A stretch of 64,000 nucleotides of DNA. It comes from Azolla caroliniana (taxonomy: Eukaryota > Plantae > Polypodiophyta). The notes below the pieces were generated by a model. The model was not told the origin of the DNA, made no database searches, and saw only the letters and a program-made list of their open reading frames with translations. Positions 1,600 through 63,299 of the stretch are shown piece after piece; the first letter of the stretch is position 1, and each line of letters starts with the position of its first letter. The stretch is from positions 8,432,001 through 8,496,000 of the forward strand of contig JBHGNT010000012.1 in NCBI GenBank assembly GCA_043228905.1. The letters are read 5' to 3'. Made by a program: the position numbers and the translations under genes.

Positions 1600-2335
1600 T
1601 TACCCCATTTCGGATGCCACTTGGGAACCAATTACACATTTACAAAATGCTCCGGAGGCCAAGCGTTTCATCAACGGTACCCACATAAGCTAGTCGCGGG
1701 TCTTGAGAGACAACCTTCAAGGGAGGATAATGTTTGGCTTGGGAGGCAGCCTTAAAGGGAGGATAATTTCCTTAAGTTCAGTACATGCCACAGTACATTT
1801 CAGACGCCACTTGGGACCCGGTTACACATTTACAAAATGCTCTGGAGGCCATTCAAGTGTTTCATCAACGGTGCCCACATAAGCTAGGAGCGGGTCTTGA
1901 GAGACACCCTTCAAGGGACGATAATGTTTGTCTTGGGAGGCAGCCTTAAAGGGAGGATAATTTCCTTAAGTTCAGTACATGCCACAGTGGAAGGTAAGGG
2001 TTGAACCAATGACCTCCCAATCTCCATAGGGAAACCTTACCAACTGAAGTACATCCATCTGTGTATATTTATATAAAATCAACTTGATGTATTGTAGATT
2101 GAACACTAGAAGTTCCCTAGCTTGCATGCATCCTCATGCATTCTCTAGAATATTCCTAGCTTGCATGCATACCTCCACCTTCTTGTATAAATACTCAGGT
2201 GCACCTTGATTCTAATAAAGGTGAACAACACCAGTTATAGAAGTATAAGATGAGTTCTTGTTCTCTTTTTTCTGTCTATTCTCTCTCTTAGTATTTAGTC
2301 GCGTCTTGGTTCTGGTCTATTCTACACATCTGTGA
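1600..2335 (+). mobile_element. Tcn1-like chromovirus 3' fragment: chromodomain end, PPT and LTR, with a ~190-bp tandem duplication (about 1606-1794 / 1795-1988)
   Basis: Encodes DATWEPITHLQNAPEA..AFHQRYPHK. The PPT-like AAGGGA(G/C)GATAAT occurs 4 times. The LTR has TATAAATA and AAGGTGAACAACACCAGTTAT, shared with the LTR at 27937-28388. Confidence 0.7.
1989..2057 (-). promoter_or_regulatory. tRNA-like A/B-box cassette in LTR U3
   Basis: TACTTCAGTTGGTAAG ... GGTTCAACCC. Confidence 0.6.
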
Positions 2336-2339
2336 GACC

Positions 2340-2625
2340 AATTATCTTTCATGCCCCTATAAAGTTATCTATATTTTCTAATTATCTTTCCTACCCTTAT
2401 AAAATTTATCTAATTACCTTTCATGCCCCTAGAAAAGCTATCTAGTTTTTGCTAATTATCTTTTGTGCGCCTATCAACTTATCTTGTTTTTCTAATTATC
2501 TTTTGTGCCCCTACCAAATGTATCTAGTTTTTTCCAATTACTTTCGTGTCCCTGTAAAAAACTTATCTAATTTTACTAATTAACTTTTGTGGCCCTATAA
2601 AAACTTCAATAACTTTTCTTAAATT
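2340..2625. repeat. Degenerate ~41-bp tandem repeat, about 7 units
   Basis: Recurring ctaattatctttt..tgcccct..aaa.ttatcta.tttt units. Confidence 0.7.
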
Positions 2626-2953
2626 TTCCTTCTTGCCCTCAAAAACCACAAATATAATATATTTATTTTTAATTACCCTTCATGCTCACCCGCCCCTTAC
2701 AAGCTACCATAAGGAAACAAGGGCACATTGGCATTGCCAAAAATTAAAGATAAATAATAAAATAATAAGTAAATAGGTAAGTAAAATTTAATTAATTAAT
2801 AAGAATAAGAACAATAATAATAATAACTACAAGGGCACACTCCCTAACCTTTGAACAAACCTGAACAAACTTTGTACACATCCAAACAAGTGTGTGCACT
2901 TTGACTGTAAAGAATGAGAGACGTAGGTGGTGTTGTGCATCGGAAGCGAACTC

Positions 2954-2955
<2 letters not shown>

Positions 2956-3007
<52 letters not shown>

Positions 3008-3013
3008 TAAGAT

Positions 3014-3048
<35 letters not shown>
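2956..3048. repeat. Compound (TG)n/(GA)n microsatellite
   Basis: Directly visible in the sequence. Confidence 0.95.
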
Positions 3049-3050
<2 letters not shown>

Positions 3051-6000
3051 AAGAAGTTGTATTCACAAAAAGCAATATTACATCCAACTAAGAACTAAGT
3101 TACAAGTAGTTGGTTTAAATACCAACTAGTCTAGGGCAAGTGCCCTTTCTACTCATTACAAAACTAGGCTAGTATGATGTCCATTGGCTAGTGTGAACAC
3201 TATCTCTATGGGAGGCTTAGTTCGATTCTCGAAATGCCCCTTCGAACAACTTCCGGGTGCCAAAAGGTTGGTTCGGTTTGATCTTCAAAAAACTTTGATT
3301 CAGCTGAATCGACTTCGACTTTCGAGTTGTTTCGGTTGTTCGGCTTTCCAGTTGTTTCGGTTGTTCGATTGCTTCATGCTCCTTGTTTCACTCGATTGTT
3401 ATCGTACTTCGACTCTTCTGGTCGGCTTTAATCGACTGATCGGTTGTTGTTCGACATCAACTATTACTACTCCCCCTCAAGCGCGGTTGGTCGGTGATCA
3501 AGAGACCAAGGTTCGTCGTGAACTGCCACAGCTTGTCGAAACCCAGGGCTTTTCGAACTGCCACAGCTTGTCGGCCACCTCGAGATTCATGTTGATGTGT
3601 TGTAAATCGACATCTCTAGCCTGAACGCGCTCCCAAATGAAGTGATAGTGCACTTAGATATGCTTAGTCCACGCGTGGAACACGGGGTTCCGAGCCAAGT
3701 AGATATTGCTCATGTTGTCGTAGTATAGGATAATCGGATCTTGGATGGGAACGCCCAGATCCTTCAATATGCGCTTTAGCCATACGGCCTCGCATGCGGC
3801 CACTATCGCACCCCTATATTTGGCCTCTATGCTTGATAGTGCGACTGTCGACTGCTTTTTGCTACCTCAGGAGATTGCTCCGTTGCCGAGCGAGAAGACA
3901 AATCTGGAAGTCAATTGTCTATTAGCCTTAAAGTTGGCCCAGTTCGCATCTATGTACCCTTCGAACCGGATGATCATATCCGACTTATATAGAATGCCAA
4001 AATCCATTGTCCCATGGACGTACCTAAGTACCCTCTTAGCGCAATCAAGATGAACATTTTGAGGATTCTGCATGAATTGGCTAAGTAGGCCAACTAAATA
4101 GCTGTGGTCAGTTCATGTGATGGTTAGATAGATTACGCTACCAATCAATTGTCGATACTGAGTTGGCTTGCACTCTTTTGTTCCCGAATCGGCATCAAGT
4201 TTGAGATTTCGATTGAGAGGGGTAGACATAGGTTTACACTCTGTCATTTCGAACTTGTAGAGAGGCTTCCTGAGTCGGAAGACGGCTTTCAAGTGAATGT
4301 TGGATTCGAAGCCGGGTGGTTGTACCATGTACACCTCCTCTTCTAATTCTCCTTGAAGAAAGACATTCTTGACGTCCATCTGATGGAGGTGTCACCCTTT
4401 CGCCGCTACTAGAGCAATGATTGTCTGAACAATCGTCATCTTTGCCACTAGGGCAAAGGTCTCCTCGTAATCGACGCCATGTGTTTGTGCATATCCTTTT
4501 GCTACGAGTCATGCCTTGTGGCGATTTACCGAGTCGGCAGCATTATGTTTGACTTTTTGATAATCCATCTACAACCAATTGCTTTCTTGTGTGGAGAATG
4601 GGGGACGAGATCCCATGTCTCATTTCTGCTTAATGTCGGCATCTCCTCATTAATTGCTTCAATCCATCACGGATCCTTGGCTGCCTTAGAAAAGGTTTCC
4701 AGTTCTCAGACAGTCGCGACCTTCATCATAAAGGTATAGTGGAATCGGTTGACCAGGTTTTTCTCTCGGGTGGAGCAACGGAGCTTCTCGTTTGCAGAGT
4801 CTAAGGCTTTCTTCGCTCCATTCGTCTGGATGATTGGGATGTCCCTGCCTTTGAACTCACTGTCAAGGGACTAAGTTCACTTGTCATCGATTGGATCTTC
4901 GTATTCTGACATCTTGGCCTTCCCTTTGTCAAGTTTCGGACTTCGTCGAGATATGCTTTGGTCACTCAGGGGCTCCTATGGTCCACTAAGCCTTGTCGTA
5001 ATTGGACTTTCTTCGAACATGTGTCCGAGCCGAAATTCATCTTCTATCTCTCGTTCAGCCGATTCTGGGTTGATTGGAGTTGAAATCAGAGTTGTCTCCA
5101 TGTCGTACCAGGATGCCGACTCGTCGAAAATGACATCTCGACTTACTCAAACTTTTCGGGTAGAAGGATGGTAACATTTGTACCCCTTTTGTTCGAGTGA
5201 GTACCCTACGAGGATACATTTCTCCGACTTCGGGTTGATCTTTTGTCGCTTCTCGTCGGGAATATGCATGTACGCGATCGAGCCGAATATCTGGATATGT
5301 GATAGATCTGGCTTCTTTCAAAAGAACTTCTCATGAGGAGTTATGTCATGTACCGCAGAGGTTGTACATCGGTTCATAAGATATACGGTTGTCTTACCCA
5401 CTTCTGCCAGTACGATTTCGGCAGGTTCTTCTCATTCATCATGGCCCTTGCCACCGCTAATATGTGCCGATTCTTTCGTTAGGCTACTTTGTTTTGCTGA
5501 GGTATACGTCGGCATGAGAATTCTCGTCGAATTCCTTCCTTTCGGAGGTACGCCGTAAAATCGTTCGAGAAATACTCCTTGCCTCCATCCGATCGAAGGC
5601 ATCGAACATGCCGACTTGTGGCTTTTTCAACTTTGTTTTTAAACCTTTGGAAGTGTCCGAACACTTCACTCTTCTACCACATCGGATAGATCCAGGCCTG
5701 CCTCAAGAAGTCGTCGGTAAACATGACATAGTATCGTCATCCACCAAATGTGGTTGTCTGTGCCGGTCCCCATACATCTTAATGTACGACATACATGATC
5801 CCTTTGCTCACATTCCCTTCTTTTGGGAAGGGTTGTCGGTGTTGTTTGCTGAATTGGCAGGCTTCACATACACCCGTAATCTCCTTCTTGATAAATGTCA
5901 GAAGTCCGATTACGACTCCTTTCGACTGCATCCTTTTAAGCTTTTGGAGATTAATGTGGCCAATTCGCTTGTGCTATAGTTTCAAGTCAGTTTCGACTTT

Positions 6001-7260: not shown

Positions 7261-7299
<39 letters not shown>

Positions 7300-10200
7300 C
7301 TGTCTCCCTCTCTGTCGACGATTTCTTTCTCCATCTCTGACGACGATTTCTGTCTCCCTCTCTGTCAATTTCCATTTCACTCTGTCGATTTCTGTTTTTT
7401 CTCACAACTCCATCCTTCGGACTTCATCATTACTCGTTCCTCGTTGATCGTCGCTCGCTCAATCGCCGCTCGTCGCTCTCTATTGCAAGGTGAGTGCACA
7501 ACTATAGTTTCTAAAAATTTCCAATTAGGTTCATAAGAACAAGACCAGTTTGAAATGGCAGTTGTAAAATGCAGAATGTATGTTAAATAGTTCAAGTATT
7601 CTAAAATGCATTTTATACATAAAATGCACATTTTTAATAGCTATGTTTGTGAAGGTTTTGTTTCTTTATCACAATAATTAATGACATCCATGAATATTTG
7701 CTCAAATGCCTGATGATTGCAATCCTGAATTATTGTTGCCTTTGCTTCCAACGTTCATTTTCCCGCTGGAGAAATAGTGTTTTTTGTACTAGAGGCAAGT
7801 ACAGTGGATGTCCGTAAACTACGGTAATTATTTCAGAACATGGGCGAGAGAAATTAGAGTACTAGAATTTTCTTCTTCTTCTTCTTCTTCATCATGAAAT
7901 ATGGCATGCCCATCATCATCATGAATCATGGTATGCACATACTCATGATGAAACATGGTCTGTTGAGAAGTGGCATGCCTATCATGAATGATGGTGTGCC
8001 CATTGCCATCATCATCATCACCACCACCATCATGAGATATGATATGCACATCATCATCATCCTGAACCATGGTACATCCATCATTATCATTTTCATGAAC
8101 CATCATGGTATTGCCATCATCCACATGACCACATTCTCTTTGAAACCTCATAATTCTTTCTCGCTAACAATTCTTGCAAAGGAACAAGAAAGACCTTGAA
8201 AGAAAGTTTCAAGTGATTAACTCATCTCCATAGCTGGATCTATAAGTGCTTTACCTCATACATCTTTGCAGCTAGCTGCTCCAATGGATATGGCTGTTAG
8301 GATTTCAGAACGATGATGGAAGCTAGAAGCTGGAGATATATCTAAATCATTTTTTAGGGGCATCAAAAGAGATTGTTGTATGTTTTGAGAGCATCAGAGT
8401 GCCTCTTCTGTCAATCAGGGTATGAAAGTTTGAGGCTTTCAAAAGGACATTGAGACTCTCTCAGAATTAGGCCTGTATTGGGATTGAGACCCTAATTTAA
8501 TGGTGAAACCTTATAAAGTTTTAAGATGGCTTGCTTGCTGCTGTTGGATACACAGAAAACAATCAGAGTCAACAAGAAGAGAGAGGGAAACAAAGGCTCT
8601 GCTTTCCTCTGTTTTTTTGTTTTCAAAAAAAGGCAAAGAAGAGGAGAGAAGTGCATGGGCCCATGATTCGTGGCAAGTGTGTTTAACCATGAGAAAGAAT
8701 ATCATAAACTTTTTGGGCCTTCGCACTCCGTGATTTGGTAAAATGGTCCGAATTTGTCCCGAAATATATAATGGTAATTGCCTCCAATATAGCATGCATA
8801 GCATATGTCAATGAAATGCTCATTTGTTTGTATTCCCCTCCCACATAGATTTCATAACTTGCTACTAGTTGTCGTTTTCTCCCGTCTATTTGTCTCCTAG
8901 TTTGAGCCGAATGCGAACAATTGTGTACTTGTCAATGGTCTTGCTCATTTTTTTCATGTAAGATGTGGAACTACGTATCTAAGAGAGTATGTTGATGTCA
9001 TTAGGAACGAGTTGGAGCAAGTGATTTGATAACATGTCATCCTGATTCCTAACCCATGTTCTCTCAGTTTTATATCGCTTGATTTGCTAAGCTTTAAACC
9101 AATGAGTCCCTAACCAATGTTGTAGTGACGGTTCATAATCAATACATTGCATGGTAATTTCAATTACTTTAAACAAACTTACCATAAACCTTAAGATGAA
9201 GTGGTGCTTTCAATATAGATGTAGCAAGAATTGTTACATATGCTCATGTATTTCATATTGTCTCTATGTAAATAGATTTGTATGAAGATCCAAGAGTAGC
9301 ATACAAGTTTAGGACAAGTCAAGATAGAGTAGCATAATTAGTGTAAACACCACGAGGCCACTTTGTGCATATTTGGATACACATGTATGATGTGTACAAT
9401 GTATTGCTCAAACTTTTGACTTTATGACCCAAACATGAGACGAAGACAATGCATGCATGAGACGAAGACAATGCATGTATGTCTCATTGATAGTGAAATT
9501 ATTTTGAGGTTTTGACATTCAATTTAAGAGTTTCAATTGCGTTTTGCATCGAACACGCTAAGAAAGAGATGAACTAGTAAATAGTGAAGATATGTATTAT
9601 TTATCATTTGCATGTGCGTGTAAGCTAATGTGAGGCTTCCTCTTTCTTCTTTATTTTTTTATAGATTGGAAGATCCATAGTGGAAACTCAATCTTTTATA
9701 GCCTCCGCAATCTTCCATATATTCCAGGTATTTTAATTTTCTTATTCTCTTTGGAAAACATGGATTGTGTATGTATGTTTCCCTTTCTTGTAAATGAAAA
9801 TGATAGATTATGATTGTTCAATATACTCTACCTTATTGTTACAGTATGTCGCACAACAAAAATAGCAAAGGCAAGGGAAAACAAATGAGCCTTCATACAA
9901 TGCCTTGTTTTAGGAAGAACATGTCATCTTCTAATGAAGATGTGTCTCTAGAAGAACCTATAAAAGACCAACAATACTCTCAAGAGTCAATTAATGAGAT
10001 AAATAGAGTTAGTAAGGCGAAACTAAGATTTCAAGAAGATTGGCCTACTAAATTTAAGTGGCTTCAAGAGGATTTAGAAACTGGGCTTCTATGGTGTAGT
10101 TATTGTAGGAATGACCCACATTGTAAGTCCTTATTTGGAAAAACAGGTGCAAAAAATTTTAAGACTTCTGCATTAGAAGAACATGCAAGAAGTGTGGCCC

Positions 10201-17672: not shown

Positions 17673-18216
17673 ATCACAAGGAGGGAGGTAACAACCTTTT
17701 ATCCTTCAAGATATCACTTCATTCCTTCTAAGCTGAAGAAACTGCTCTAGTAATTCTTTTTTCCATATTAGAATTTCTATTATCCTTGTATACTCTATTT
17801 TTGCTATTCCCGACAGCCTCAACTACACTATTAGATGCTGAAAATTTATACGGAATCGGAACATTTTCTGCATGCAACACCATCTTCTTCGAGTGATCCT
17901 CTACATTCTTTCTCACAATCTTGGCATAAGAAAATGCCACAATATCCTTAGATATAGAAATTTGCTAAATTTCTGGCTTAAAAGGACATATTTGCATGTT
18001 TGCTTGATTCTCTAAATATTGCACCAACTTTTGAACCTTTGAAGAATTACTCATAGGCGCTACATCGTCACAAAGACCAACCCCCCGAACCATACTAACT
18101 TGTTGGGTATCAACAATAGGTAACAGCTCGTAATGTGCTTCCACAGCCTACGAAACAGTATTCAAAAGTGGAAAATGTTGCAAAGGAATATCATAAATTC
18201 TATTAGGCAATTCAAT

Positions 18217-19029
18217 TTATTTTTTCCCCCGAAACGCCTGATTTCTATACACGATCTGCCATTGCAAAGATTTTTGAACAAGACCTTCACCAAAAGAGGT
18301 AGTATCTTGTTCCAATGGACAAGCTTTGGCGATATGACCTATTTCCCTACACCTGTAACATTGATTCGGTAAACCATAATATACAACTTTCTGAAGTTTT
18401 TGAAAGGCATTTCCATCTAGTTTCGGCAATCGAATCCATTGTGGCAATTTTTCCCCTTTCCTACATAGTAATTTCACTGACGGAGCTCCTCCTTCCAAAA
18501 CCTCATTCTTAGTATGTGACTGAAATGCCAAGACCTTACCAATAGATGCACTTAGTTTAGGCAATATCTTCCTCCATTCTTTCTCCAAATTTGGGAAAAC
18601 CATCATACAAGTGAACATAGCGGTTGAATCCTCTTGTAAAGCAAGTGTATTAAATCCGTGACACCACGGATAAAACACCGCCAGGGCACCCTTAAGATCC
18701 GCCGAGCCCAATGACAAGAGATGAGAAACCGATTTGCCGTTCTCAAATTCCAATTGATAGCAACCACGTCCTAATATTTGAATGTCAATAATTTTATCCA
18801 AAACTGATTGGATGGCAACCTGTAACAAATGTCGAAGATCCCCTTTGCTTGGCCGGCTTCCCAAAATATGTACCACTATTGAGACGGCCTGAAGACGAAT
18901 CAACTCTTGCATAACAATCACTTCATCCTCTAGTGCTAGGCTAATGTCTAAAGACCCTTCGACAGAGATTGGGTTGACAGCTGATGCACTGGATCGCTCT
19001 CGGGGCGTTGATGTCGATGGTCCCTCCAT
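18217..19029 (-). pseudogene. LINE ORF1 (DUF4283-like region plus CX2CX4HX4C knuckle), frameshifted downstream
   Basis: YGLPNQCYRCREIGHIAKAC. Confidence 0.8.
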
Positions 19030-19389
19030 GGCTGAGTAGATACTTCCTTAATGTATTCCTTCTCTCTCCTTTTTATATATTGTATCTTCCCTAATTTTTG
19101 TTAAATAAATCTATTATTTAGAATAGAGAAGAGGATTACCAGGATAAATTGATTCTTGTCTACTAATTATTGCTGATTTTGGCAGCCACTCGCTTCTGTA
19201 GGAGAGGAAAATAAGTTGTGCAAGGGCAGCAAGGGCGACAACAGATCTAACATTCATTTGTTCGTCTCCAATCAAAAATTTTAAGATGGTTTCCAATAGA
19301 AAATGCACATTAAGAGTGGAGAACATCTGTTCTGCTTTGATTTTGCTCTGTTTTGCTCTGTTCTATTCTGCTCTATTCTGCCCTACTCT

Positions 19390-19580
19390 GTGCGTAATGT
19401 ACTGTGTGTTAAAAGTTAGAGGTTCGAGTCTAGAATGTGAGATTATCCCCCCTCTTACGTCGCCTTCCCAAACTGGTCCTTGGCTTAAGGGGATATTGTT
19501 GATGAAAATCTTAGACCACCTCCAAAGTATTTTGTAAATCCCAAATAAGAAGTAACCCTTCCAGAAGACGAGGTATTGAA
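19390..19580 (-). mobile_element. Chromovirus remnant: chromodomain, PPT and start of LTR
   Basis: QYLVFWKGY...LQNTLEVV..FHQQYP and PPT AAGAGGGGGGATAAT. Confidence 0.6.
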
Positions 19581-19828: not shown

Positions 19829-20968
19829 TGTCGTGAAGATTTTCGGTAACAGTGTGAAAATTGCATGGAATGTACAAAATTAAGTGTGGTTCTTCACACA
19901 CAATATGAAACAATAATAGTGAAGATATTATTTTATATTAGTTTAATATCTTGGTACGAGAAGATGGATGCCTTCAAGAGCTTCTGAATGTACTTTACTA
20001 CTTTTGAAACGTACAACTAAATGTTAAGTTATGTAAATGTGAAGTTTGAGAATAAGAAGAGAAAAACAAAATTGTGAGATATCCCACATAGATAGGACAA
20101 CATCAGGATGCAAGAGTATATAAGTAGAGCCATATCTTTTTATATTTTATCTAAGTGCTAGGAGTACAAAAGGGTTGGGTTGTATAACTTGGACGAATGG
20201 ATGCGGCCAAGTTATTCAAATAGTGTTTTGGACGGAGCCGAAACCGGAATCGGACGGCGACATAACCGAAACCAGAACGGATAGACCGGATCACCGGGTC
20301 GGAAGCGGACCGGATAGATGAATCAATCGGATACGTTGATCGTGACGATTTCAGTGTGAAACGAACAAAATCATCTAAACTAAAAAACCTATTAGAAATT
20401 TGTAATCAAAAAGATGCAAGCAAGGCTTGAACCTTGCACCTCCAACATAGGAGGCAATGAACTTACCATTAAGCCAAGTCATGTCTTTAAAAATGTGTTT
20501 ACTATCATTATACTTTCACATGTAAACTTTCATGTTAGAGCTCGATTGAGTGACATGGTTATCATGCATCACATGTAATACATGAGCGCCAAATGGCAAA
20601 CATGCATCTCATGCATGTCTTGCACCCTCACAAGCATCATATGCATGGGGCCATCTATAAAAGAGTGGATAGAGAGGAAAAACGGGCTATGTATTAATCA
20701 AGAAATTAAGAAGAAGAAAATTTGTTATCCAATTGATGATATATCTTGTTCATCAAATCTAAAGTCAAGGGTTCAATCTTAATCTCTCTCTCCATTTCAA
20801 TCTCTCTCAATCTAAAGTCAAGCGTTCTATCTTATCTCAATCTCTCTCTCTTTTAATCTATCTTAAATACTTTCTTGCTAAATCTAGTGCAAACTTCGAA
20901 TCCTTCCGGTCCAAAACCCCAGCAGTTCCACCTCACGATCCGCACATAGTAATGGATTTTTCACAACA
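19829..20968 (+). mobile_element. Solo LTR of the TGTCGTGAAG lineage, 4-bp TSD CCGG
   Basis: TGTCGTGAAGATTTTCGG...TTTTCACAACA, flanked by CCGG at 19825-19828 and 20969-20972. Both ends resemble the LTR at 12635-13460. Confidence 0.85.
20414..20485 (-). promoter_or_regulatory. tRNA-like A/B-box cassette in solo LTR
   Basis: TGGCTTAATGGTAAG, a CCTCC/GGAGG stem and the T-arm GCAAGG-TTCAAG-CCTTGC. Confidence 0.7.
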
Positions 20969-27402: not shown

Positions 27403-28261
27403 CCCTCGAACTCATCCTTGCAAGGGACCGTTATAAAGCGCAAGTTGATCAACATCATTCCGCTACACCTGCCTTTGCAGTTGGTGATCAAATTTGGCTC
27501 TTACGTCGCCATGTCGATACTACTTGACCTTGCGGAAAGTTGGATTACAAGAAGTTGGGGCCTTTCCGCATCATTGAGTGTGTCAATCCTGTCACTTTCT
27601 AGTTGGAACTTCCTCCACATTTCCGGATTCATAATGTTTTCCATGCCTCTCTTCTCGAACCTTATCATCCATCCACTATTCCTGGAAGACACTCTCCACC
27701 TCCACCTCCAATTGAACTTTCCACATGTGAGGAGTATGAGGTGGACAAGATTATGGACTCTCATTGGTATCGACGACAACTTCAATACTTAGTCTTATGG
27801 AAAGGGTATCCCATTTCAGAGGCAACTTGGGAACCATCCCAACACTTGGAGAATGCACCGGATGTTGTTCATGCATTTCATCCCCAATACAAAAACCAGG
27901 GAGACATCTTTGGAGGCGGCCTTAGCAGGGGGATAATGTCATGGACATGACAACAGTCATGTCATGATTCGAACTCTTGACCTATTGTATTTAATCGATA
28001 TGTTTTAACTAATACATCCAATACATAATCATGTTACCTTACTAGATTATTGCAGATTATCTACTCTACATGTAGGATTTTAGAAGCTTCCAGAAAGCTC
28101 CAGAAGGTAGAACATTCTAGAAGCTTGTGCATGAAAATGAGTCTTTGCATGGGGCTACATTTAGAGCCCATAAACATGTATAAATACAAGGGTTCACCTT
28201 GGCCTTAGTCAAGGTGAACAACACCAGTTATGGAATCATAATTCCGTTCTTGTTCTCTTGA

Positions 28262-28360
<99 letters not shown>

Positions 28361-34338: not shown

Positions 34339-34371
<33 letters not shown>

Positions 34372-48536: not shown

Positions 48537-48587
48537 TGTCGTGACTTGAGAATAGGAGAGAGAAAAATAAGATGACAGTAGAAGGTA

Positions 48588-48627
<40 letters not shown>

Positions 48628-48897
48628 ACACTAGAGATGGAAAGAGAGTTTATATTATAAGAGAGCAAGGATTACAAAGAGTAGGCTAAGGGGCTACAAA
48701 CTGGTGTTGAACCGAATGTGTTGTGATGAATGAATAGACACCTATTTATAGGTCCTTATGGAGTATTCTGGAAAGTTCTAGAATATTTTAGATATTTATG
48801 ATATTTAATATAATCATGGAATATCCTAGAATGTTCTAGAATACTCTAAATGTCTTGTAATAACTAATAATACATTTATTATAACTATACATCATAT

Positions 48898-48962
48898 ATG
48901 TTAGTATAATGGTTAAAGGTCTAACATATAGACCAAGACGTCTTGAGCTCGAATCCTTGTAA
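48898..48962 (+). promoter_or_regulatory. tRNA-like A/B-box cassette in LTR U3 (copy at about 63114-63178)
   Basis: TAGTATAATGGTTA, a GGTCTA/TAGACC stem and GAGCTCGAATCC. Confidence 0.6.
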
Positions 48963-48979
48963 GGCCAAAATGTATGTCG

Positions 48980-49660
48980 TCATGACATTATCCCCCCTTT
49001 TCGACGACGAGTTCCACGAGTCGGAAGACAAGATTTTGGACTTGGCTTATGAGGATATTTGTTGTGAAATGCAGCAACCATTTCGGAGGCATTAGCAAGA
49101 TTCTCAAGAGGTTCCCATGTTCGATCATTAGGTGTATAACCTAACCAGTCAACCAAATAATACAGTTTGTTGCGAACGATCTTGGAGTCGAGAATGGCAG
49201 CAACTTCATATTCGGAGCCATCCGAAATTTCGATTGGAGGTGGGGGAGATGTAAGATGGCCTGGAATAGAGCTGGTTGTGTACGGCTCCAAAAGTGAAAC
49301 ATGGAAGACCGGGTGAAGATGCATATGAGGGGGAAGATCAAGGCGAAATGCCACATCATTGATCTTACCAGATATCACATATGGGCCAAAACGTTGATAA
49401 TCCAATTTGCAGCAAGGTCGGGTTGTTTTAATGCGACCTTGTAAAAGCCATACTCGATCCCCCACTTGAAACGTAGTCAATGAATCACGTCGATGACGGC
49501 CGACAACCTTCTTTTGAGTGTTTTGAGCATCACATAAATGGTGCAAAAGGATATCTTGAACTTCTTGGAGTTGGGTGAGCCGATCTTCAGCAGCCGGGTT
49601 TGTCGGGAGTTCGGGATGTTCAAGCATAGTCCAACGAGGATGGTACCCAATGTTTGCAAA
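48980..49660 (-). pseudogene. Integrase C-terminus (GPY motif) plus chromodomain
   Basis: FGPY, HPVFHVSLL, EYEVAAILD..YYLVDWLGY..TWEP. Confidence 0.88.
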
Positions 49661-52586
49661 AAAATGGGGAATATCCAGTAGAAGAATGTTCTGAGTTGTT
49701 GTAAGCAAATTCCGCCAAATGTAATAGATCAATCCAATCATCTTGTTGATAGTTGACAAAACAACGAAGATATTGTTCTACTGTTTGGTTGGTGTGCTCA
49801 CTCTGTCCGTTAGTTTCTGGATGGTAACCGGAAGAGAGTTTGCAAGAAGTATGTAAGAGTTTGAACATGTGCCGCCAAAATTTTGAGATGAACTGGGGAC
49901 CCCGATCACTGATAATATCATCAGGAAGACCATGATGCCGAAACACCCCTCGCATGAGTAACTCGGCTGTCTCTTGGCTCGTAATGGCCTTTGTGCAGGG
50001 AAGAAAATGTGCCATCTTGGTAAAACGATCTACTACTGTGAGAATAGAATCAAAACCCTTGGAAGGTGGTAGATCCGTAATGAAGTCCAATGAAATAGAT
50101 TTCCATGGACTCTCAGGAATAGGCATTGGCTGTAATAAGCCATATGGATGATGTCGAGGTTTTTTGGATCGGCAACATGTATCACAACTACGAACATAAT
50201 ACGTAACAAAATGGCGAAGTCGTGGCCACCAATACCTTTGAGAAATTAACGCCAAAGTCTTGTGGATGCCAAAATGTCCAGCCATTGGTGTATCATGACA
50301 TTGTTGCAAGATTTGGAGTCGAGAAGGACCATCAGGCACATATAAGAGATTTTGTTGAAAAAGTAAACCATCATGCCAATTGAACTGGTTGTAGTCTTGA
50401 CGAGGATTTTGAGATTGTGAACAAGAAGCACGATTTGGGATAATATGGCTCAGAATATCTTGGGCGAATTCATCAGTCTCAATATGCTCCCGAATGGAGT
50501 CTAGAAGACTTGAATCCTCGGGTGTGTCTATAGCATGAAAAGCCATTAGTCGTAGACGGTCAGGACCCAAGAGGATTTGCTTCTGACTTTCAAATGCGGC
50601 CTCTCCTGGTTGAAGTTCCATATATGAACGCCGAGATAAAGCATTTGCTTTGCCTTGTTGCGTCCCAGGGCGATATAGAATTACGAAATCAAAACGAGTT
50701 AAAAATTGCGCCCAACGAGCTTGTCGACGACTCAATACTCGAGCACTTTGGAAGTACGTTAGATTTTTGTGATCATTATAGACAATGATTTGTTGAGACG
50801 AACCCTCCAAAAAATGACGCCATTGTTGAAAAGAATCCACAATGGCAAGAAGCTCTTTGTCGTGAATCTCATAGTTGATTTCTGCAGCTTCGAATTTCCG
50901 TGAATGAAAAGCCACAGGGTGCAGTTGGCCATCATTGCTAATCTGGGATAATACGCTTCCTAGTGCGAAGTCAGATGCATCAGCTTCCAGTATAAAGTGC
51001 TTCAATGGATCAACATGCATCAAAATTGGTGCAGATGTAAATGCTTGCTTTAATCCTTCAAATGCAGAGTTTGCATTTATACTCCACACAAATGGTTGAT
51101 TCTTCTGTGTTAGTTGAGTGAGGGGCAATACGATCTTTGAATAATCTTTGATGAACTTGCGATAAAAGTTTGCGAACCCTAAAAAACATTGTACATCTCG
51201 CACAGACTGTGGTGTTTGCCAATCCAAAATTGTTTGAACCTTTGCTGGATCCATAGAGATGCCATGTGAAGAGACTATGTACCCCAAAAATTCCACTTGA
51301 CGCTGGTCAAAGCTGCACTTCTCCAATTTTGCATAGAGACCATATTCATGCAACCGTTGCAAAGCTTGTCGAACGTGTATATCATGATCCTCTTGAGTTT
51401 TTGAGTAGATCAAGATATCATCTAGGTAAATTATGACGAAAATATCGAGGAAATCTCGAAAAATGTCATTCGCCATATGTTGGAAAACTGTTGGTGCATT
51501 CGTGAGACCAAATGGCATCACTGTATACTCAAAATGGCCATAGCGAGTACGAAAAGCAGTCTTCCATTCATCCCCAGGACGAATTCGAACAAGATTGTAA
51601 GCACCTCGAAGATCTAACTTTGTGAAATACTTAGCTCCATTGAGGCATTCCAGAAGGCTCGAAATCAATGGTAGAGCATATCCGTTTCGAATAGTTACTT
51701 TATTCAATCCTCGATAATCCACGACCACACGAAGCGAACCATCTTTCTTCTTAACGAAAAATATGGGTGCGCCGGCAGGAGATCTTGAATGCTGGATAAA
51801 CCCATTCGCCAAGTTCTCATCAATATATTCCCGAAGAACCTCTAACTCTGTGGGTGAAAGGTTATAAATTGGCCCCCATGGAGGCTTTTTTCGGGGCTGC
51901 AAATCAATCGGGCAATCATATGGTCGATGCTTTGGTAGTCTATTGGCCTTCACCTTATCAAAAACATCGGAGAATTCTATATATTTCGTCGGTAGTTGGA
52001 CCCCTGATTCTTGTGAGCTCGTTGTGGGAGTTGCTAAAACTGCGAACACCAACATGTCTTCCTTTCGTCCTTCCTCACGTAATTGATGTATAAAGATTGT
52101 CGAAATCTTTTGGAATGTCATATCCTTTGTTGGAGTTTTAAGAGGCTTAGAATGTATTGTGACTTCTTCGATGGTTCGTTTTCTCCAATCAATAGTTGGG
52201 TTATGTAGCTCAAACCATGGAAGACCAAGAACTAGGGAGTGCTCTGGACTACTAATGATGTTGAATGAGATGACACTAGCCAAATTGCCTAGGACTACAT
52301 GAATTGGTTCAGACTCTTCAACTATATCACATGATGCTATGGGGCGTCCATCAATGACTCCGACTGACACTGGGCTTGGGAGCTTATGCAACTGAATATT
52401 ATGCATTACAACAAACTCACGATCCATGAAACAAGAGTTGGCTCCAGAGTCTAAGAGGGCAGAAGCTGGGACTCGATGGCACCTAGATGTGTTAAGCTCA
52501 ACTTGTGTAGAGAAAACTCGACTAACTTGACCGGATGAAATGGAACCACAACTAGGGACGGACGTTACATGCCTAGGGTTGTCCAA
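49620..52586 (-). CDS. Gypsy pol (PR-RT-RNase H-integrase), frameshifted near 49650
   Basis: LLDSGA, YLDD, ADASD, GHFG..CDTC, SLDFI, SDRG. Confidence 0.92.
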   Translation of the reverse strand: MDNPRHVTSVPSCGSISSGQVSRVFSTQVELNTSRCHRVPASALLDSGANSCFMDREFVVMHNIQLHKLPSPVSVGVIDGRPIASCDIVEESEPIHVVLGNLASVISFNIISSPEHSLVLGLPWFELHNPTIDWRKRTIEEVTIHSKPLKTPTKDMTFQKISTIFIHQLREEGRKEDMLVFAVLATPTTSSQESGVQLPTKYIEFSDVFDKVKANRLPKHRPYDCPIDLQPRKKPPWGPIYNLSPTELEVLREYIDENLANGFIQHSRSPAGAPIFFVKKKDGSLRVVVDYRGLNKVTIRNGYALPLISSLLECLNGAKYFTKLDLRGAYNLVRIRPGDEWKTAFRTRYGHFEYTVMPFGLTNAPTVFQHMANDIFRDFLDIFVIIYLDDILIYSKTQEDHDIHVRQALQRLHEYGLYAKLEKCSFDQRQVEFLGYIVSSHGISMDPAKVQTILDWQTPQSVRDVQCFLGFANFYRKFIKDYSKIVLPLTQLTQKNQPFVWSINANSAFEGLKQAFTSAPILMHVDPLKHFILEADASDFALGSVLSQISNDGQLHPVAFHSRKFEAAEINYEIHDKELLAIVDSFQQWRHFLEGSSQQIIVYNDHKNLTYFQSARVLSRRQARWAQFLTRFDFVILYRPGTQQGKANALSRRSYMELQPGEAAFESQKQILLGPDRLRLMAFHAIDTPEDSSLLDSIREHIETDEFAQDILSHIIPNRASCSQSQNPRQDYNQFNWHDGLLFQQNLLYVPDGPSRLQILQQCHDTPMAGHFGIHKTLALISQRYWWPRLRHFVTYYVRSCDTCCRSKKPRHHPYGLLQPMPIPESPWKSISLDFITDLPPSKGFDSILTVVDRFTKMAHFLPCTKAITSQETAELLMRGVFRHHGLPDDIISDRGPQFISKFWRHMFKLLHTSCKLSSGYHPETNGQSEHTNQTVEQYLRCFVNYQQDDWIDLLHLAEFAYNNSEHSSTGYSPFFCKHWVPSSLDYA

Positions 52587-52714
52587 CCAAATGGCTCCGA
52601 TTTTGGCCGGACTTACTCGTTTAACACATCATCTAATTGGCTCAAGACATCAAATGTATTTTTATGACAGGGACTACCAGGCCTACTTGGGTTACGAGAA
52701 GGTGGGGCAGAAAT

Positions 52715-53731
52715 TTATATGGGATTGTCATGAGCACTTACTTGGTTAACTTGTCGTCGTGGTTTATGTGGACAATTCACAGCAGTATGCCCTGGACCAC
52801 CACAATAGAGGCATAGACGATTCACTCGCCGTCGTTGCTTTTCAGCATCCGATAATGGTCCTTGACGTCGTGTTGTCTCGATTTCCATTGGAGTAGGGCC
52901 TTCCACCACACTTGACTTTGATACTTGGGGTGGAGTTGCAACCACCGAAGCATATGTTTTTGTTGGTCGAAAACGTAATATTTGTTGGCGCTCAGAACGC
53001 CGCTCAAATAAGCGATTGTCACATCGCACGGCCCGGCTTACTGCTTCAGTAAGAGATTTTGGATCATCATGGAAGGTAAGAAGTAAATCCTTCACATCAT
53101 TCCGCAGAACTTGACGAAATTGGTCCATTAATGCTGCCTCGTCCCATGGAATGTCACATGCTAGAAGGCAAAAATCTGCAGCATAAGCGGAAGCAGGACG
53201 ATCTCCTTGTCGTAATCGCCGAATTTTGTTTATTGCTGTCCTCATACTATCAGTGTCTCCAAAGTTGGCTTGGAACTCATTAATAAACCCTTCAAAATCT
53301 TCTAATAATGGTGAGTGCTTCTCTAGGAGTGGTGCAAACCACGCTAATGCGGTACCCGTTAACAAGGTACCAACTAGACCCACACGAGCAACATCAGTTG
53401 GGTAACGGCTAGGATGCAATTTAATCACAAGCCGTACCTGATTTAAAAATCCACGAAACTGAGACCTTGTACCATCAAACTTGGCCGGCAGACTAATCTT
53501 GGGTTCCTTCGGCGAGGTTTGAACTTCCGCCGCTTGTTGTTGCAATAGAGTAGTCTCCAATTGATGCACCCGTTGAGATAATTCTTCATATTGTTGTACT
53601 TTTTCAGCACTTACTTGTTGTAGGTCTCCCAACAATCTTTGATTTTCATGCTCTAGTGCCACGAATTTGGTTGTTAGCATTTCGAGCTCGGAGAGAACAC
53701 GCATATATTCTTGCTTGCTGACGGACTCCAT
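52715..53731 (-). CDS. Gypsy gag with zinc knuckle; premature TAA where the duplicate arm has TCA
   Basis: PKISLPAKFDG, LRQG, PMEI, CLYCGGPGHTAVNC. Confidence 0.9.
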   Translation of the reverse strand: MESVSKQEYMRVLSELEMLTTKFVALEHENQRLLGDLQQVSAEKVQQYEELSQRVHQLETTLLQQQAAEVQTSPKEPKISLPAKFDGTRSQFRGFLNQVRLVIKLHPSRYPTDVARVGLVGTLLTGTALAWFAPLLEKHSPLLEDFEGFINEFQANFGDTDSMRTAINKIRRLRQGDRPASAYAADFCLLACDIPWDEAALMDQFRQVLRNDVKDLLLTFHDDPKSLTEAVSRAVRCDNRLFERRSERQQILRFRPTKTYASVVATPPQVSKSSVVEGPTPMEIETTRRQGPLSDAEKQRRRVNRLCLYCGGPGHTAVNCPHKPRRQVNQVSAHDNPI

Positions 53732-54681
53732 AGTTGCGATAGAAAATTGCTAAATTTGGTTGAATAAGGTTAAGATAAGAAGAAGAAGTTGGAGAAGAAG
53801 AAAAGAGATAGATTCGGTTCAAACAGTTTTCGACCAACAGAAACATATGCTTCGGTGGTTGCAACTCCACCCCAAGTATCAAAGTCAAGTGTGGTGGAAG
53901 GCCCTACTCCAATGGAAATCGAGACAACACGACGTCAAGGACCATTATCGGATGCTGAAAAGCAACGACGGCGAGTGAATTGTCTATGCCTCTATTGTGG
54001 TGGTCCAAGGCATATTGCTGTGAATTGTCCACATAAACCACGACGACAAGTTAACCAAGTAAGTGCTCATGACAATCCCATCTCAATTTCTGCCCCGCCT
54101 TCTCGTAACCCAAGTAGGCCTAGTAATCCCTGTCATAAAAATACATTTGATGTCTTGAGCCAATTAGATGATGTGTTAAACGAGTAAGTCCGGCCAAAAT
54201 CGGAGCCATTTGGTTGGACAACCCTAGGCATGTAATGTCCGTCCCTAGTTGTGGTTCCATTTCATCCGGTCAAGTTAGTCGAGTTTTCTCTACACAAGTT
54301 GAGCTTAATGTTGGTTTTTTTTTTTTTCGGTCCCTCCGGATGGGATGTCCGGAGATGAATGACGGCAATCCCGGTTACGGCTACGGTTACGGTTGCAGCT
54401 ACGGAGCCGGATGATGAATACCCCGGCTGCGGATCCGGATGCTGAAGATCCCGGCTACGGAGCCGGATGATGAAGACCCCGGCTACGGAGCCGGATGACG
54501 AATGTACCCGGAGAGAGAGATCCGGATGCGGGGACATATTTGTGAATATGTTTACCAAGGGCCCTTGAGGCTATAATTGTAAATAGCCCGAAAGTCATAT
54601 GTGTATAAATATGACTTAGGGCAAACAGATGATGTTGTTGCTCATTTTCTGTTTTCACTTAGAGAGAGTGAAGAGAGCAGC

Positions 54682-54715
<34 letters not shown>

Positions 54716-59089: not shown

Positions 59090-59285
59090 AGGGGGAGTTT
59101 GTTGGTTTTTTTTTTTTTCGGTCCCTCCGGATGGGATGTCCGGAGATGAATGACGGCAATCCCGGTTACGGCTACGGTTACGGTTGCAGCTACGGAGCCG
59201 GATGATGAATACCCCGGCTGCGGATCCGGATGCTGAAGATCCCGGCTACGGAGCCGGATGATGAAGACCCCGGCTACGGAGCCGG

Positions 59286-59950
59286 TGTCGTGAAGGATTT
59301 GCTTCACGATATAAAAATAAACTTGAATATTGTATTAAGTAACATTTGAGAGACTTGAACCCATAACCTCACACACCAAGGACGAAGCATATACCATTAG
59401 GATAAGTTATTTTCTATAGTTATATTTTTATCATACTTATGACATGTTTCTTCATACATTAGAGCTTAGTTGAGCATGATGGCTATCATGCATCACATGT
59501 AAAGCATGTGCGCCAAATGGCGATCATGCATCACATGCATCACATGCATTATATGCATGCCATGCACCCCCATATCATCATATGCATGAGAGAACCTATA
59601 AAGAGAGGCAAGGAATTAAGGGATGAAGAGGGGGGAAAATAGGGTAAGGAATCAAGAGAGAGTAAAAAAAATAATACAATCAATTGAAGAAGACTAGCTC
59701 ATTGGGTGGAGAATCTCTTGTTTCGAAGTTGAGGTCGAGGGTTCAAATCAAGGGTCGGCATTGAAAAGATTCATCTTGCGATCAAGGATTGTAAAGTTGG
59801 TAAAATATTATATTTTTAATATACATCATGTTTATATCATATACTCTTGTTCTTTGAATCATACTTTGTCTCAATCTTCTTTCTAGAATCATACTTTGTC
59901 TCAATCTTCTTCCTTGAATCATACATTGTCTCTATCTTTTATCTATGCTC

Positions 59951-60011
<61 letters not shown>

Positions 60012-60146
60012 TACTTGTAACTCTTCATCTTACTATCCTTAACCATTCTATCATCACCATACAAGCCTTATTAAACTTAAGTTTCTTCAACTCCCCTTAA
60101 CCTTAGTCCCCGCGACTTCGCCGCACGAACCACAACTACCCCGACA
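59286..60146 (+). mobile_element. Solo LTR of the TGTCGTGAAG lineage inside the Copia 3' LTR, 4-bp TSD CCGG
   Basis: TGTCG...CGACA termini, with CCGG at 59282-59285 and 60147-60150. The uninterrupted 5' LTR has a single CCGG at this position. Shares gcgccaaatggc/catgcatc blocks with 19829-20968. Confidence 0.92.
59343..59408 (-). promoter_or_regulatory. tRNA-like A/B-box cassette in solo LTR
   Basis: TATCCTAATGGTA ... GAGGTTATGGGTTCAAGTC. Confidence 0.6.
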
Positions 60147-60338
60147 CCGGATGACGAATGTACCCGGAGAGAGAGATCCGGATGCGGGGACATATTTGTG
60201 AATATGTTTACCAAGGGCCCTTGAGGCTATAATTGTAAATAGCCCGAAAGTCATATGTGTATAAATATGACTTAGGGCAAACAGATGATGTTGTTGCTCA
60301 TTTTCTGTTTTCACTTAGAGAGAGTGAAGAGAGCAGCC

Positions 60339-60369
<31 letters not shown>

Positions 60370-63299
60370 GAAGAGGTCGTTGCCTCTGTGTAATACCGCC
60401 GCCTGTGGCGAGGACAGCGAGCTCAAGGTCGTTGCCTTGCAGCTCGCCATTGTATATTTCTCTGTGCATAGTTTTGGTTTGGAGTCTTGCACTCCCGTGG
60501 TTTTTCCCGTATAGGGTTTTCCACGTTAATCCCTGTGTTATCGTGTCTTTCTCTGTGTTTCCTATTTTCTGCTGCATTGATTCGCGACTACTCGGTTGTG
60601 GCCGAGTGGTGAAGGTTAATCAGAGCATCGATTCTCAACACTTAACACATCGAGGTGCCATCGAGTCCCAGCTTCTGCCCTCTTAGACTCTGGAGGCAAC
60701 TCTTGTTTCATGGATCGTGAGTTTGCTGTAATGCATAATATTCAGTTGCATAAGCTCCCAAGCCCAGTGTCAGTCGGAGTCATTGATGGACGCCCCATAG
60801 CATCATGTGATATAGTTGAAGAGTCTGAACCAATTCATGTAGTCCTAGGCAATTTGGCTAGTGTCATCTCATTCAACATTATTAGTAGTCCAGAGCACTC
60901 GCTAGTTCTTGGTCTTGCATGGTTTGAGCTACATAACCCAACTATTGATTGGAGAAAAAGAACCATCGAAGAAGTCACAATACATTCTAAGCCTCTTAAA
61001 ACTCCAACAAAGGATATGACATTCCAAAAGATTTCGACAATCTCTATACATCAATTACGTGAGGAAGGACGAAAGGAAGACATGTTGGTGTTCGCAGTTT
61101 TAGCAACTCCCACATCGAGCTCACAAGAATCGGGGGTCCAACTACCGAAGAAATATATAGAATTCTCCGATGTTTTTGATAAGGTGAAGGCCAATAGACT
61201 ACCAGAGCATCGACCATATGATTGCCCGATTGATTTGCAGCCCGGAAAAGAGCCTCCATGGGGGCCAATTTATAACCTTTCACCCACAGAGTTAGAGGTT
61301 CTTCGGGAATATATTGATGAGAACTTGGCGAATGGGTTTATCCAGCATTCAAGATCTCCTGCCGGCGCACCCATATTTTTCGTTAAGAAGAAAGATGGTT
61401 CGCTTCGTGTGGTCGTGGATTATCGAGGATTGAATAAAGTAACTATTCGAAACGGATATGCTCTACCATTGATTTCGAGCCTTCTGGAACGCCTCAATGG
61501 AGCTAAGTATTTCACAAAGTTAGATCTTCGAGGTGCTTACAATCTTGTTCGAATTCGTCCTGGGGATGAATGGAAGACTGCTTTTCGTACTCGCTATGGC
61601 CATTTTGAGTATATAGTGATGCCATTTGGTCTCACGAATGCACCAACAGTTTTCCAACATATGGCGAATGACATTTTTCGAGATTTCCTCGATATTTTCG
61701 TCATAATTTACCTAGATGATATCTTGATCTACTCAAAAACTCAAGAGGATCATGATATACACGTTCGACAAGATTTGCAACGGTTGCGTGAATATGGTCT
61801 CTATGCAAAATTGGAGAAGTGCAGCTTTGATCAGCGTCAAGTGGAATTTTTGGGGTACATAGTCTCTTCACATGGCATCTCTATGGATCCAGCAAAGGTT
61901 CAAACAATTTTGGATTGGCAAACACCACAATCTGTGCGAGATGTACAATGTTTTTTAGGGTTCGCAAACTTTTATCGCAAGTTCATCAAAGATTATTCAA
62001 AGATCGTATTGCCCCTCACTCAACTAACACAGAAGAATCAACCATTTGTGTGGAGTATAAATGGAAACTCTGCATTTGAAGGATTAAAGCAAGCATTTAC
62101 ATCCGCACCAATTTTGATGCATGTTGATCCATTGAAGCGCTTTATACTGGAAGCTGATGCATCTGACTTCGCACTAGGAAGCGTATTATCCCAGATTAGC
62201 AATGATGGCCAACTGCACCCTGTGGCTTTTCATTCACGGAAATTCGAAGCTGCAGAAATCAACTATGAGATTCACGACAAAGAGCTTCTTGCCATTGTGG
62301 ATTCTTTTCAACAATGGCGTCAGTTTTTGGAGGGTTCGTCTCAACAAATCATATTCTATAATGATCACAAAAATCTAACGTACTTCCAAAGTGCTCGGGT
62401 CTTGAGTCGTCAACAAGCTCATTGGGTGCAGTTTTTAACTCGTTTTGATTTCGTAATTCTATATCGCCCTGGGACGCAACAAGGCAAAGCAGATGCTTTA
62501 TCTCGACGTTCATATATGGAACTTCAACTAGGAGAGGCCGCATTTGAAAGTCAGAAGCAAATCCTCTTGGGTCCTGATCGTCTACGACTAATGGCTTTTC
62601 ATGCTATAGACACACCCGAGGATTCAAGTCTTTTAGACTCCATTCGGGAGCATATTGAGACTGATGAATTCACCCAAGATATTCTGAGCCATATTATCCC
62701 AGATCGTGCTTCTTGTTCACAATCTCAAAATCCTCGTCAAGACTACAACCAGTTAAATTGGCATGATGGTTTACTTTTTCGACAAAATCTCTTATATGTG
62801 CCTGATGGTCCTTCTCGACTCCAAGTCTTGCAACAATGTCATGATACACCAATGGCTGGACATTTTGGCATCCACAAGACTTTGGCGTTTTCTATTCTCA
62901 AGTCACGACAGTTTGAACCGAATGAGTTGTGATGAATGAATAGACACCTATTTATAGGTCCTTATGGAGTATTCTGGAAAGTTCTAGAATATTTTAGATA
63001 TTTATGATATTTAATATAATCATGGAATATCCTAGAATGTTCTAGAATGTTCTAGAATACTCTAAATGTCTTGTAATAACTAATAATACATTTATTATAA
63101 CTATACATCATATATGTTAGTATAATGGTTAAAGGTCTAACATATAGACCAAGACGTCTTGAGCTCGAATCCTTGTAAGGCCAAAATGTATGTCGTCATT
63201 ACACCATGCAATTGGCAAAGCAAGTCGAGTTCAATCTAACTTTGCTAGAAAATAGGTTGCAATGTTTTCTATTTCCTTAACTGTTGGCTAGTTAGGCCA

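What the first reader, a model, noticed from the sequence alone, without database searches (positions are those of the whole stretch)
1989..63178. Antisense tRNA-like Pol III cassettes embedded in the U3 of many unrelated LTRs
Seen in the sequence: A-box plus B-box pairs at tRNA-like spacing occur at 1989-2057(-), 20414-20485(-), 27958-28022(-), 48898-48962(+)/63114-63178(+) and 59343-59408(-). A B-box GGTTCGAGTC lies at 19421-19430(+) in a truncated LTR. All are upstream of the LTR TATA and antisense to the element. They occur in two lineages, chromovirus LTRs and the TGTCGTGAAG LTRs. Primary sequences differ, yet the boxes and some stems (T-arm, anticodon-like arm) persist. Established: Cassandra TRIMs carry a 5S Pol III unit in their LTRs, and TFIIIC-bound tDNAs act as chromatin barriers in fungi and animals. 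Inference: these LTRs keep a tRNA-derived module either as a barrier shielding the LTR promoter from silencing or as a source of antisense RNA. From a 3' LTR that RNA would read into the PPT/chromodomain region. I know of no description of this arrangement but cannot search the literature.
Basis: partly seen in the sequence, partly recalled or inferred. Interest (0 to 1): 0.85.

Follow-up and report, generated by a model that had tools for sequence, protein, structure and literature searches.

The report
Backward tRNA promoter in retrotransposon LTRs
Many families of jumping genes in a non-seed plant (likely a moss) carry, back to front near the outer end of their terminal repeats, the two promoter boxes of a tRNA gene, conserved while the tRNA shape is lost, which likely lets them dock the host's polymerase III factor to shield their own promoter from silencing.

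Summary
The cassettes are real. Of 15 closely related outside loci, 13 have readable LTR starts. All 13 carry the antisense B box (one decayed), 7-48 nt from the LTR edge; none of 39 more distant LTRs has both boxes. Across elements 36-86% identical in protein, the tRNA box positions and spacing are kept, while the stems show no covariation. Among copies of one family, 1 of 24 box positions varies against 13 of 25 spacer positions. It is therefore a selected DNA element, not a tRNA or SINE copy. It sits 114-191 nt outside the TATA, beyond heat-shock or RY motif arrays. Best reading: a TFIIIC docking site shielding the LTR promoter; occupancy and function are untested. Corrections: stems do not persist, the two LTR types share their U3 block, and one LTR also holds a sense cassette. 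Closest known: Helenus TRIMs, which are non-autonomous; the three LTRs seen were sense. The scan noted similar modules in fungal-type genomes.

The parts
1997..2058 (-). A/B-box cassette in chromovirus LTR family A (LTR about 1961-2326 on +; T8 at 2051, B box 1997-2007; TATA about 133 nt further in)
   Evidence: (E 0.21)
19421..19431 (+). B box only, 11 nt from the edge of a minus-strand chromovirus-type LTR that starts at 19442; A box not recognisable
   Evidence: (E 5)
19829..20968 (+). solo LTR S1 (TGTCGTGAAG type), 4-bp CCGG target duplication
20423..20483 (-). A/B-box cassette in S1 (T8 at 20476, B box 20423-20433), T5 run 21 nt from B-box start
27965..28025 (-). cassette in chromovirus LTR family C (LTR 27937-28388); B box and positions 44-48 intact, A box degenerate
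   Evidence: (E 0.027)
48537..48987 (-). 3' LTR of chromovirus family B, after chromodomain and PPT; heat-shock-element array, TATA and self-primer site
48895..48956 (+). A/B-box cassette in family B LTR (T8 at 48902, B box 48946-48956)
   Evidence: E 2e-7
48980..53749 (-). gag, protease-RT-RNase H-integrase, SH3 and chromodomain of the family B element, showing that cassette-bearing elements are protein-coding
   Evidence: Pfam
59286..60146 (+). solo LTR S2 (TGTCGTGAAG type) inserted at CCGG in a copia LTR
59351..59411 (-). antisense A/B-box cassette in S2 (T8 at 59404, B box 59351-59361)
   Evidence: (E 0.006)
63111..63172 (+). second copy of the family B cassette, in the partial LTR 62913-63203

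Best explanation
The U3 of these Tcn1-like chromovirus LTRs and related solo LTRs holds a tRNA-derived A-box/B-box pair, antisense and outside the LTR's enhancer motifs and TATA, conserved as DNA while the tRNA fold has decayed; it likely binds TFIIIC (and probably TFIIIB/Pol III) and likely acts in cis as a barrier that keeps flanking heterochromatin and read-through off the element's own Pol II promoter. Shown: the box positions, the fixed spacing, the orientation, the placement 114-191 nt outside the TATA, the loss of stems, and lower variation in the boxes. Inferred: origin from one tRNA or SINE head captured in U3 and then trimmed; spread by vertical descent and probably by U3 swaps between co-resident families; TFIIIC binding; barrier activity. 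The antisense orientation would place TFIIIB on the AT-rich side facing the Pol II promoter and send any Pol III away from it, which would let a protein-coding element keep a Pol III unit without blocking its own mRNA. Any RNA made would be a by-product of about 60-130 nt in most families.
For: Between families: T8 15/15, A14 13/13, G53 15/15, T54 14/15, T55 14/15, C56 12/15, A58 15/15, C61 14/15. Mean pairwise identity is 0.66 (A box) and 0.69 (B box) against 0.36 (spacer), 0.47 (upstream) and 0.39 (downstream). G18-G53 distance is 35 or 36 nt in all 13 that keep GG, of 15. Host proteins are 36-86% identical. Within the S2 family, across three DNA runs: 1 of 24 box positions varies at >=8% (A15 to G, which the consensus allows) against 13 of 25 spacer positions (Fisher p=0.0003), and 0 of 9 against 9 of 12 C/G sites. 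No RNA structure and no fixed terminator, which points to a DNA element. In 12 of 12 LTRs examined the TATA lies 114-191 nt inward, with heat-shock dyads or RY motifs between and 70-88% AT just upstream of the unit. An AT-rich upstream region is a plant tDNA feature (PMC13437025, passages). Chromodomain integrases are thought to target heterochromatin (PMC7466625, passage). tDNA barriers need the A box, TFIIIC and Pol III and work in either orientation (PMC2040200, passages). TFIIIC sites block Pol II read-through in yeast (PMC4228148, abstract).
Against: No binding, transcription or reporter data. Position 10 is often T rather than the usual G, and several genomic copies carry damaged boxes. 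The 31 nt between the B box and the S2 LTR edge also vary little (2 of 31), so boxes against all other positions gives only p=0.02. Contig-based variant counts favour well-aligning stretches. The families are related, so the between-family p-values are not independent tests. Close moss-type relatives (L017-L019, L030, L011, L012, L034) lack the cassette, as do two same-terminus LTRs in the window (12635-13460; from 48400), so it is not required for transposition. In yeast, Pol III complexes can also repress neighbouring Pol II units (PMC4228148, abstract). Orientation-independent barriers do not explain the fixed orientation; inheritance may.
Confidence: 0.5

Rival explanations
1. The cassette is a working Pol III gene whose short antisense RNA (U3 edge plus PPT) regulates the element, for example by pairing with genomic RNA or feeding small-RNA silencing.
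For: Both boxes, tRNA spacing and an AT-rich upstream region are kept. In 6 of 15 3'-LTR contexts the A run of the PPT itself gives the first T4, 9-12 nt past the LTR edge, and 3 more stop inside the LTR.
Against: The transcribed part is the least conserved (0.36) and has no shared fold. The first T4 ranges from 11 to 1037 nt after the B-box start. From a 5' or solo LTR the RNA would end in arbitrary host DNA.
Confidence: 0.15
2. The Pol III complex damps the LTR's Pol II promoter, like tRNA genes beside yeast Ty LTRs, giving self-restraint or tighter stress-only induction through the heat-shock or RY motifs.
For: Same geometry and conservation. Loss of TFIIIC de-represses adjacent Pol II transcription in yeast (PMC4228148, abstract). 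Inducible motif arrays lie between cassette and TATA.
Against: Selection among active lineages more simply favours elements that raise expression; the families are abundant (958-1446 contigs laid on 801 bp of family B in each of three DNA runs).
Confidence: 0.12
3. The motif serves replication or integration rather than chromatin: pairing of U3 with the self-primer or PBS, or tethering of the cDNA end to TFIIIC.
For: The sense strand of the B box resembles the PBS of self-priming families, and in chromovirus LTRs it lies within 50 nt of the cDNA end.
Against: Family C has a different self-primer and PBS, and family A shares C's self-primer-type sequence, yet both keep the B box. The A box and fixed spacing are unexplained. 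In S1 the cassette is about 600 nt from the end.
Confidence: 0.1
4. A neutral relic of an old SINE or tRNA insertion in U3, carried along without function.
For: Kojima proposes SINE insertion into LTRs as the origin of such modules (PMC10886601). Some copies are damaged, and relatives do without it.
Against: Exactly the tRNA promoter positions and their spacing survive across elements down to 36% protein identity while the sequence between them is near random. Lower variation within a family, including at C/G sites.
Confidence: 0.08

Closest known systems
Helenus (TRIMp3), Kojima 2024, PMC10886601 (parts 1-4 of 6 of the text, searched passages, one supplement passage)
   Same: [quoted passage not shown]
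   Different: Helenus are short non-autonomous TRIMs. The three animal LTRs and the Selaginella LTR seen in the supplement passage carry the module in sense, as the presumed element promoter. The paper argues that autonomous partners must use Pol II and are unlikely to share such LTR sequence. Here the carriers encode gag-pol-chromodomain, have a TATA and a self-primer, and the module points outward. The paper mentions other Repbase LTRs with tRNA similarity but does not analyse them.
Cassandra and Ajax TRIMs (5S-derived; as described in PMC10886601)
   Same: Pol III promoter elements carried in LTRs.
   Different: 5S type 1 promoter in non-autonomous elements; Cassandra's drives the element RNA.
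Tcn1 chromoviruses of non-seed plants and fungi (PMC2864245 and PMC6317226, passages; PMC3350952, abstract)
   Same: Chromodomain integrase, about 450-bp LTRs, self-priming in place of a tRNA PBS.
   Different: No Pol III module in the passages read; 'polymerase III' does not occur in the main text of PMC2864245.
tDNA and B-box chromatin barriers of fission yeast (PMC2040200, passages) and TFIIIC roadblocks of budding yeast (PMC4228148, abstract)
   Same: A/B-box DNA that acts through bound Pol III factors on neighbouring chromatin and Pol II transcription.
   Different: Those are fixed host loci with shown occupancy; this is a mobile, LTR-borne copy with no occupancy data.

Membership tests
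Helenus / TRIMp3 | tRNA-derived A and B boxes inside the LTR | tested here: met
Helenus / TRIMp3 | non-autonomous TRIM, short, no coding capacity | tested here: not met
   gag, RT, RNase H, integrase and chromodomain next to the family B LTR; outside loci were found by their chromodomain. Internal part of S1/S2 not available.
Helenus / TRIMp3 | module in sense, able to transcribe the element | tested here: not met
   antisense scores 13-27 against sense scores of 8 or less in the first 200 nt; Helenus-1_SMo LTR is sense. Exception: the extra sense cassette in S2.
Functional tRNA gene | cloverleaf with covarying stems | tested here: not met
Independent SINE insertion | body and tail, flanking TSD, variable site | tested here: not met
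   no tail between B box and LTR edge; longest shared flank word 5-6 nt in 5 of 5 window cassettes tested; same place in all families
Tcn1 chromovirus | integrase with chromodomain | tested here: met
   Pfam Chromo E 3.6e-14; aromatic residues visible (cage assignment recalled)
Tcn1 chromovirus | self-priming: PBS complementary to the 5' end of the RNA | tested here: met
   9-12 nt complement about 30 nt after the TATA in 4 of 5 elements tested; L046 failed
Tcn1 chromovirus | RT-RH-INT placement with named Tcn1 references | not tested
Phygy (for S1 and S2) | 4-bp NCGN target duplication | tested here: met
   CCGG on both sides of 2 of 2 solo LTRs; preference stated in PMC6317226
Phygy (for S1 and S2) | non-chromovirus polyprotein | not testable with these tools
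   solo LTRs only; no whole genome held; motif scans gave only bacterial and phage matches
tDNA chromatin barrier | TFIIIC and Pol III occupancy and block of silencing | not testable with these tools
   needs ChIP and reporter assays

The most novel reading that the evidence does not exclude
Heterochromatin-targeting retrotransposons carry their own portable tDNA-type insulator: a TFIIIC platform at the outer edge of U3 (on both sides of the promoter in S2) that travels with every insertion, moves between gypsy lineages as a U3 module, and seeds the host genome with many TFIIIC boundary sites.
Probability: 0.35. Interest if true: 0.85.

Novelty: new variant of a known kind. Interest (0 to 1): 0.68.

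Why it matters
It bears on how elements that aim at silent chromatin stay expressed, and makes that testable with a 60-bp module and point mutations. It extends Pol III promoter capture from non-autonomous TRIMs to protein-coding LTR elements, in the opposite orientation and apparently for a non-promoter role. If bound, these abundant LTRs would be a major source of TFIIIC sites in this plant genome, and a compact candidate insulator for plant transgenes.

Tried and rejected
No whole genome is held. ARAGORN and Rfam found no tRNA. A covariance model from 18 T5 tRNAs gave only S1, at E=0.8. Relaxed ARAGORN on loci gave long-intron calls that I discarded. Viral contigs: 0 loci with the single protein and 2 distant loci with the alignment. 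A 19-nt U3 motif scan gave 15 bacterial and 5 phage matches, not followed. RNA: no RNA holder listed. The guessed RNA runs X5 and X9 gave 0 and 1 contigs, which is no evidence either way. The variant table for family B showed only 40 of 80 rows, so no box-versus-spacer count was made there. The sense B-box-like word at the chromovirus transcription start was rejected as a B box: it is the self-primer, and it differs in families A and C. The apparent hit in L011/L012 at tRNA spacing lies in a tandem repeat and is within shuffle range. One origin versus several: the best tree puts wC and L058 beside cassette-less L017-L019 and L030 (98/95), but one clade is not rejected (p-AU 0.245; 39 of 83 rows used, 148 columns), so this is unresolved. 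My first guess of a fern host was dropped: the host gene is only 37-40% identical to Adiantum and Ceratopteris homologues. Nine other LTR stretches of the window: eight have no antisense pair above 5.4; one copia LTR scores 17.2 at 3219, within chance and missed by the profile.
Full report
Setting. The window is a nest of gypsy, copia, LINE and hAT elements around a plant enhancer-of-polycomb-like gene. The host gene is 37-40% identical to fern homologues. No assembly was held.

Observation. With a B-box matrix from 23 T5 tRNAs, hand-set A-box weights and 42-46 nt spacing, 5 sites score 22 or more against 0.10 in 100 shuffles. The site at 2007 scores 19.3 and the B-only site at 19421 scores 18.8. 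The family C cassette scores only 12.9 because its A box is damaged. A profile trained only on 10 outside loci returns the six A+B cassettes and the sense cassette as its top 7 window hits. None is a tRNA gene by ARAGORN, Rfam or my own model.

Relatives. A chromodomain alignment fetched 79 metagenome loci (the best 80 of 555 confirmed, from part of the collection) and 2 viral loci. An automatic rule found an LTR start with 120 nt or more in 49 of 81 loci; 32 were dropped. Ten of the 49 belong to a set of 15 loci that I grouped after seeing them. Nine of the ten have both boxes antisense, scoring 15.6-27.1 with 0 of 60 shuffles as high; L037 has the B box, then the contig switches. None of the other 39 has both boxes (best 14.2). 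Among the dropped loci, L008, L056 and L058 also show it by hand or by profile, L008 with a decayed B box; L009 and L013 have no readable LTR. So 13 of 13 readable members carry it, 7-48 nt from the LTR edge, always antisense. The SH3-chromodomain regions of 12 carriers are 36-86% identical. The tree groups most carriers together, but places wC and L058 beside cassette-less elements; a single clade is not rejected (p-AU 0.245).

What is conserved. In 15 aligned cassettes the kept positions are T8, A14, the D-loop GG (13 of 15), T20, positions 44, 46 and 47, and G53, T54, T55, C56, A58 and C61; the three C56 losses are all C to T. G18-G53 spacing is 35 or 36 nt. The spacer is at 0.36 identity. 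RNAalifold finds no consensus pair, and the named anticodon and T stems sit at shuffle level (53.7% paired against 53.7%); hairpins in single copies are not shared. For S2, contigs of three DNA runs from three organism codes vary at 1 of 24 box positions, 0 of 5 at positions 44-48, 13 of 25 spacer positions, 8 of 27 upstream and 2 of 31 downstream. Boxes against spacer gives p=0.0003; boxes against everything else only p=0.02. In family B the window copy's first B-box base differs from about 99% of the depth laid there, so its weak box is a private change. There is no tail or TSD. This is the pattern of a protein-binding DNA element, as expected of a TFIIIC site (established knowledge of type 2 promoters; binding inferred).

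Architecture. In 12 of 12 LTRs examined the order is: LTR edge, B box, A box, AT-rich 40 nt (70-88%), heat-shock dyads and/or RY motifs, then TATA at 114-191 nt from T8 (motif names recalled). The chromovirus RNA starts about 30 nt after the TATA with a 9-12 nt self-primer complementary to the PBS in 4 of 5 tested, so Pol II likely makes the element RNA. The cassette keeps its distance to the TATA even in S1, where it lies 600 nt from the edge. The first T4 on the cassette strand is inside the LTR in 3 of 15 3'-LTR contexts, in the PPT in 6, and 41-991 nt beyond the edge in 6.

Two lineages? S1 and S2 are solo LTRs with 4-bp CCGG duplications, the Phygy preference in PMC6317226, and their termini match two cassette-less LTRs in the window. 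Their U3 shares a 26-31 nt motif with chromovirus LTRs L004, L005 and L068. The simplest reading is one captured module, inherited or swapped as a U3 block (inferred). S2 adds a sense cassette about 100 nt downstream of the TATA, with a weaker homologue in S1, and other S2 copies show tandem repeats of the cassette (joints going back 66-102 nt).

Mechanism. Most likely (0.5), TFIIIC docks here and shields the LTR promoter from the heterochromatin that chromodomain integrases are thought to target (PMC7466625, passage), as tDNA barriers do in fission yeast (PMC2040200, passages), while also blocking read-through (PMC4228148, abstract). Rivals: regulatory antisense RNA (0.15), promoter damping (0.12), a role in replication or integration (0.10), neutral relic (0.08), landing pad (0.05). 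That the boxes are a selected tRNA-derived element is much more certain (about 0.85) than what they do.

Literature. Helenus (PMC10886601) is the closest: tRNA-like boxes in LTRs of non-autonomous TRIMs, sense in the four LTRs seen in one supplement passage. I read only that passage of the supplement; the rest may hold other orientations. Ten full-text searches (listings only, except the papers named) showed no report of antisense Pol III boxes in autonomous plant LTRs. The library lacks most subscription papers, and Repbase entries were not seen. The scan's own unchecked notes report tRNA-type modules in LTRs or tails of fungal-type gypsy elements in other genomes; a sequence look-up found no look-alike of this cassette.

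Verdict. A real, conserved feature; a new variant of a known kind; function untested. Interest 0.68.

Noticed in passing
window 59695-59750 (+); 20725-20776 (+): A sense A/B-box pair downstream of the TATA in solo LTR S2, so its promoter is bracketed by two outward-facing units; weaker homologue, with a partial duplicate, in S1.
   Followed up: partly
window 60641-63203 against 48537-52496: An inverted 2.2-kb pol copy (98% identical) ends in the LTR end plus PBS and switches into the reverse strand of U3 exactly at the self-primer/PBS complement: likely a fold-back product of self-primed reverse transcription or recombination.
   Followed up: partly
window 48760-48850, 28080-28130; L003, L006, L046: Arrays of heat-shock-element dyads in U3 of some families; others have CATGCA (RY) arrays at the same place, suggesting interchangeable inducible enhancers.
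   Followed up: partly
window 19829-20968, 59286-60146, 12635-13460: TGTCGTGAAG-type LTRs insert at CCGG with a 4-bp duplication (ACGG flanks the third); S1 has a second LTR-start-like word at about 20339, so it may be compound.
   Followed up: partly
window 59310-59411, contigs of runs X2 and X4: Other copies carry tandem repeats of the cassette region (joints going back 66, 88 and 102 nt).
   Followed up: no
window 3170-3229 (+): A weak A/B-like pair antisense in a minus-strand copia LTR (score 17.2, within chance; not hit by the profile).
   Followed up: partly
window 1606-1988: A 194-bp tandem duplication of the chromodomain end and PPT just before LTR family A.
   Followed up: no
window 34502-45285 (+): Host enhancer-of-polycomb-like gene with a Tudor domain, in long exons.
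   Followed up: partly
window 9807-12080 (+); about 15300-19050 (-): A 757-aa hAT transposase frame, and a broken LINE with a DUF4283/zinc-knuckle ORF1.
   Followed up: no
L043:2039-2083 and L044:2040-2084: A B-box-like stretch about 8 kb upstream of a cassette-less chromovirus end; possibly a host SINE head.
   Followed up: no
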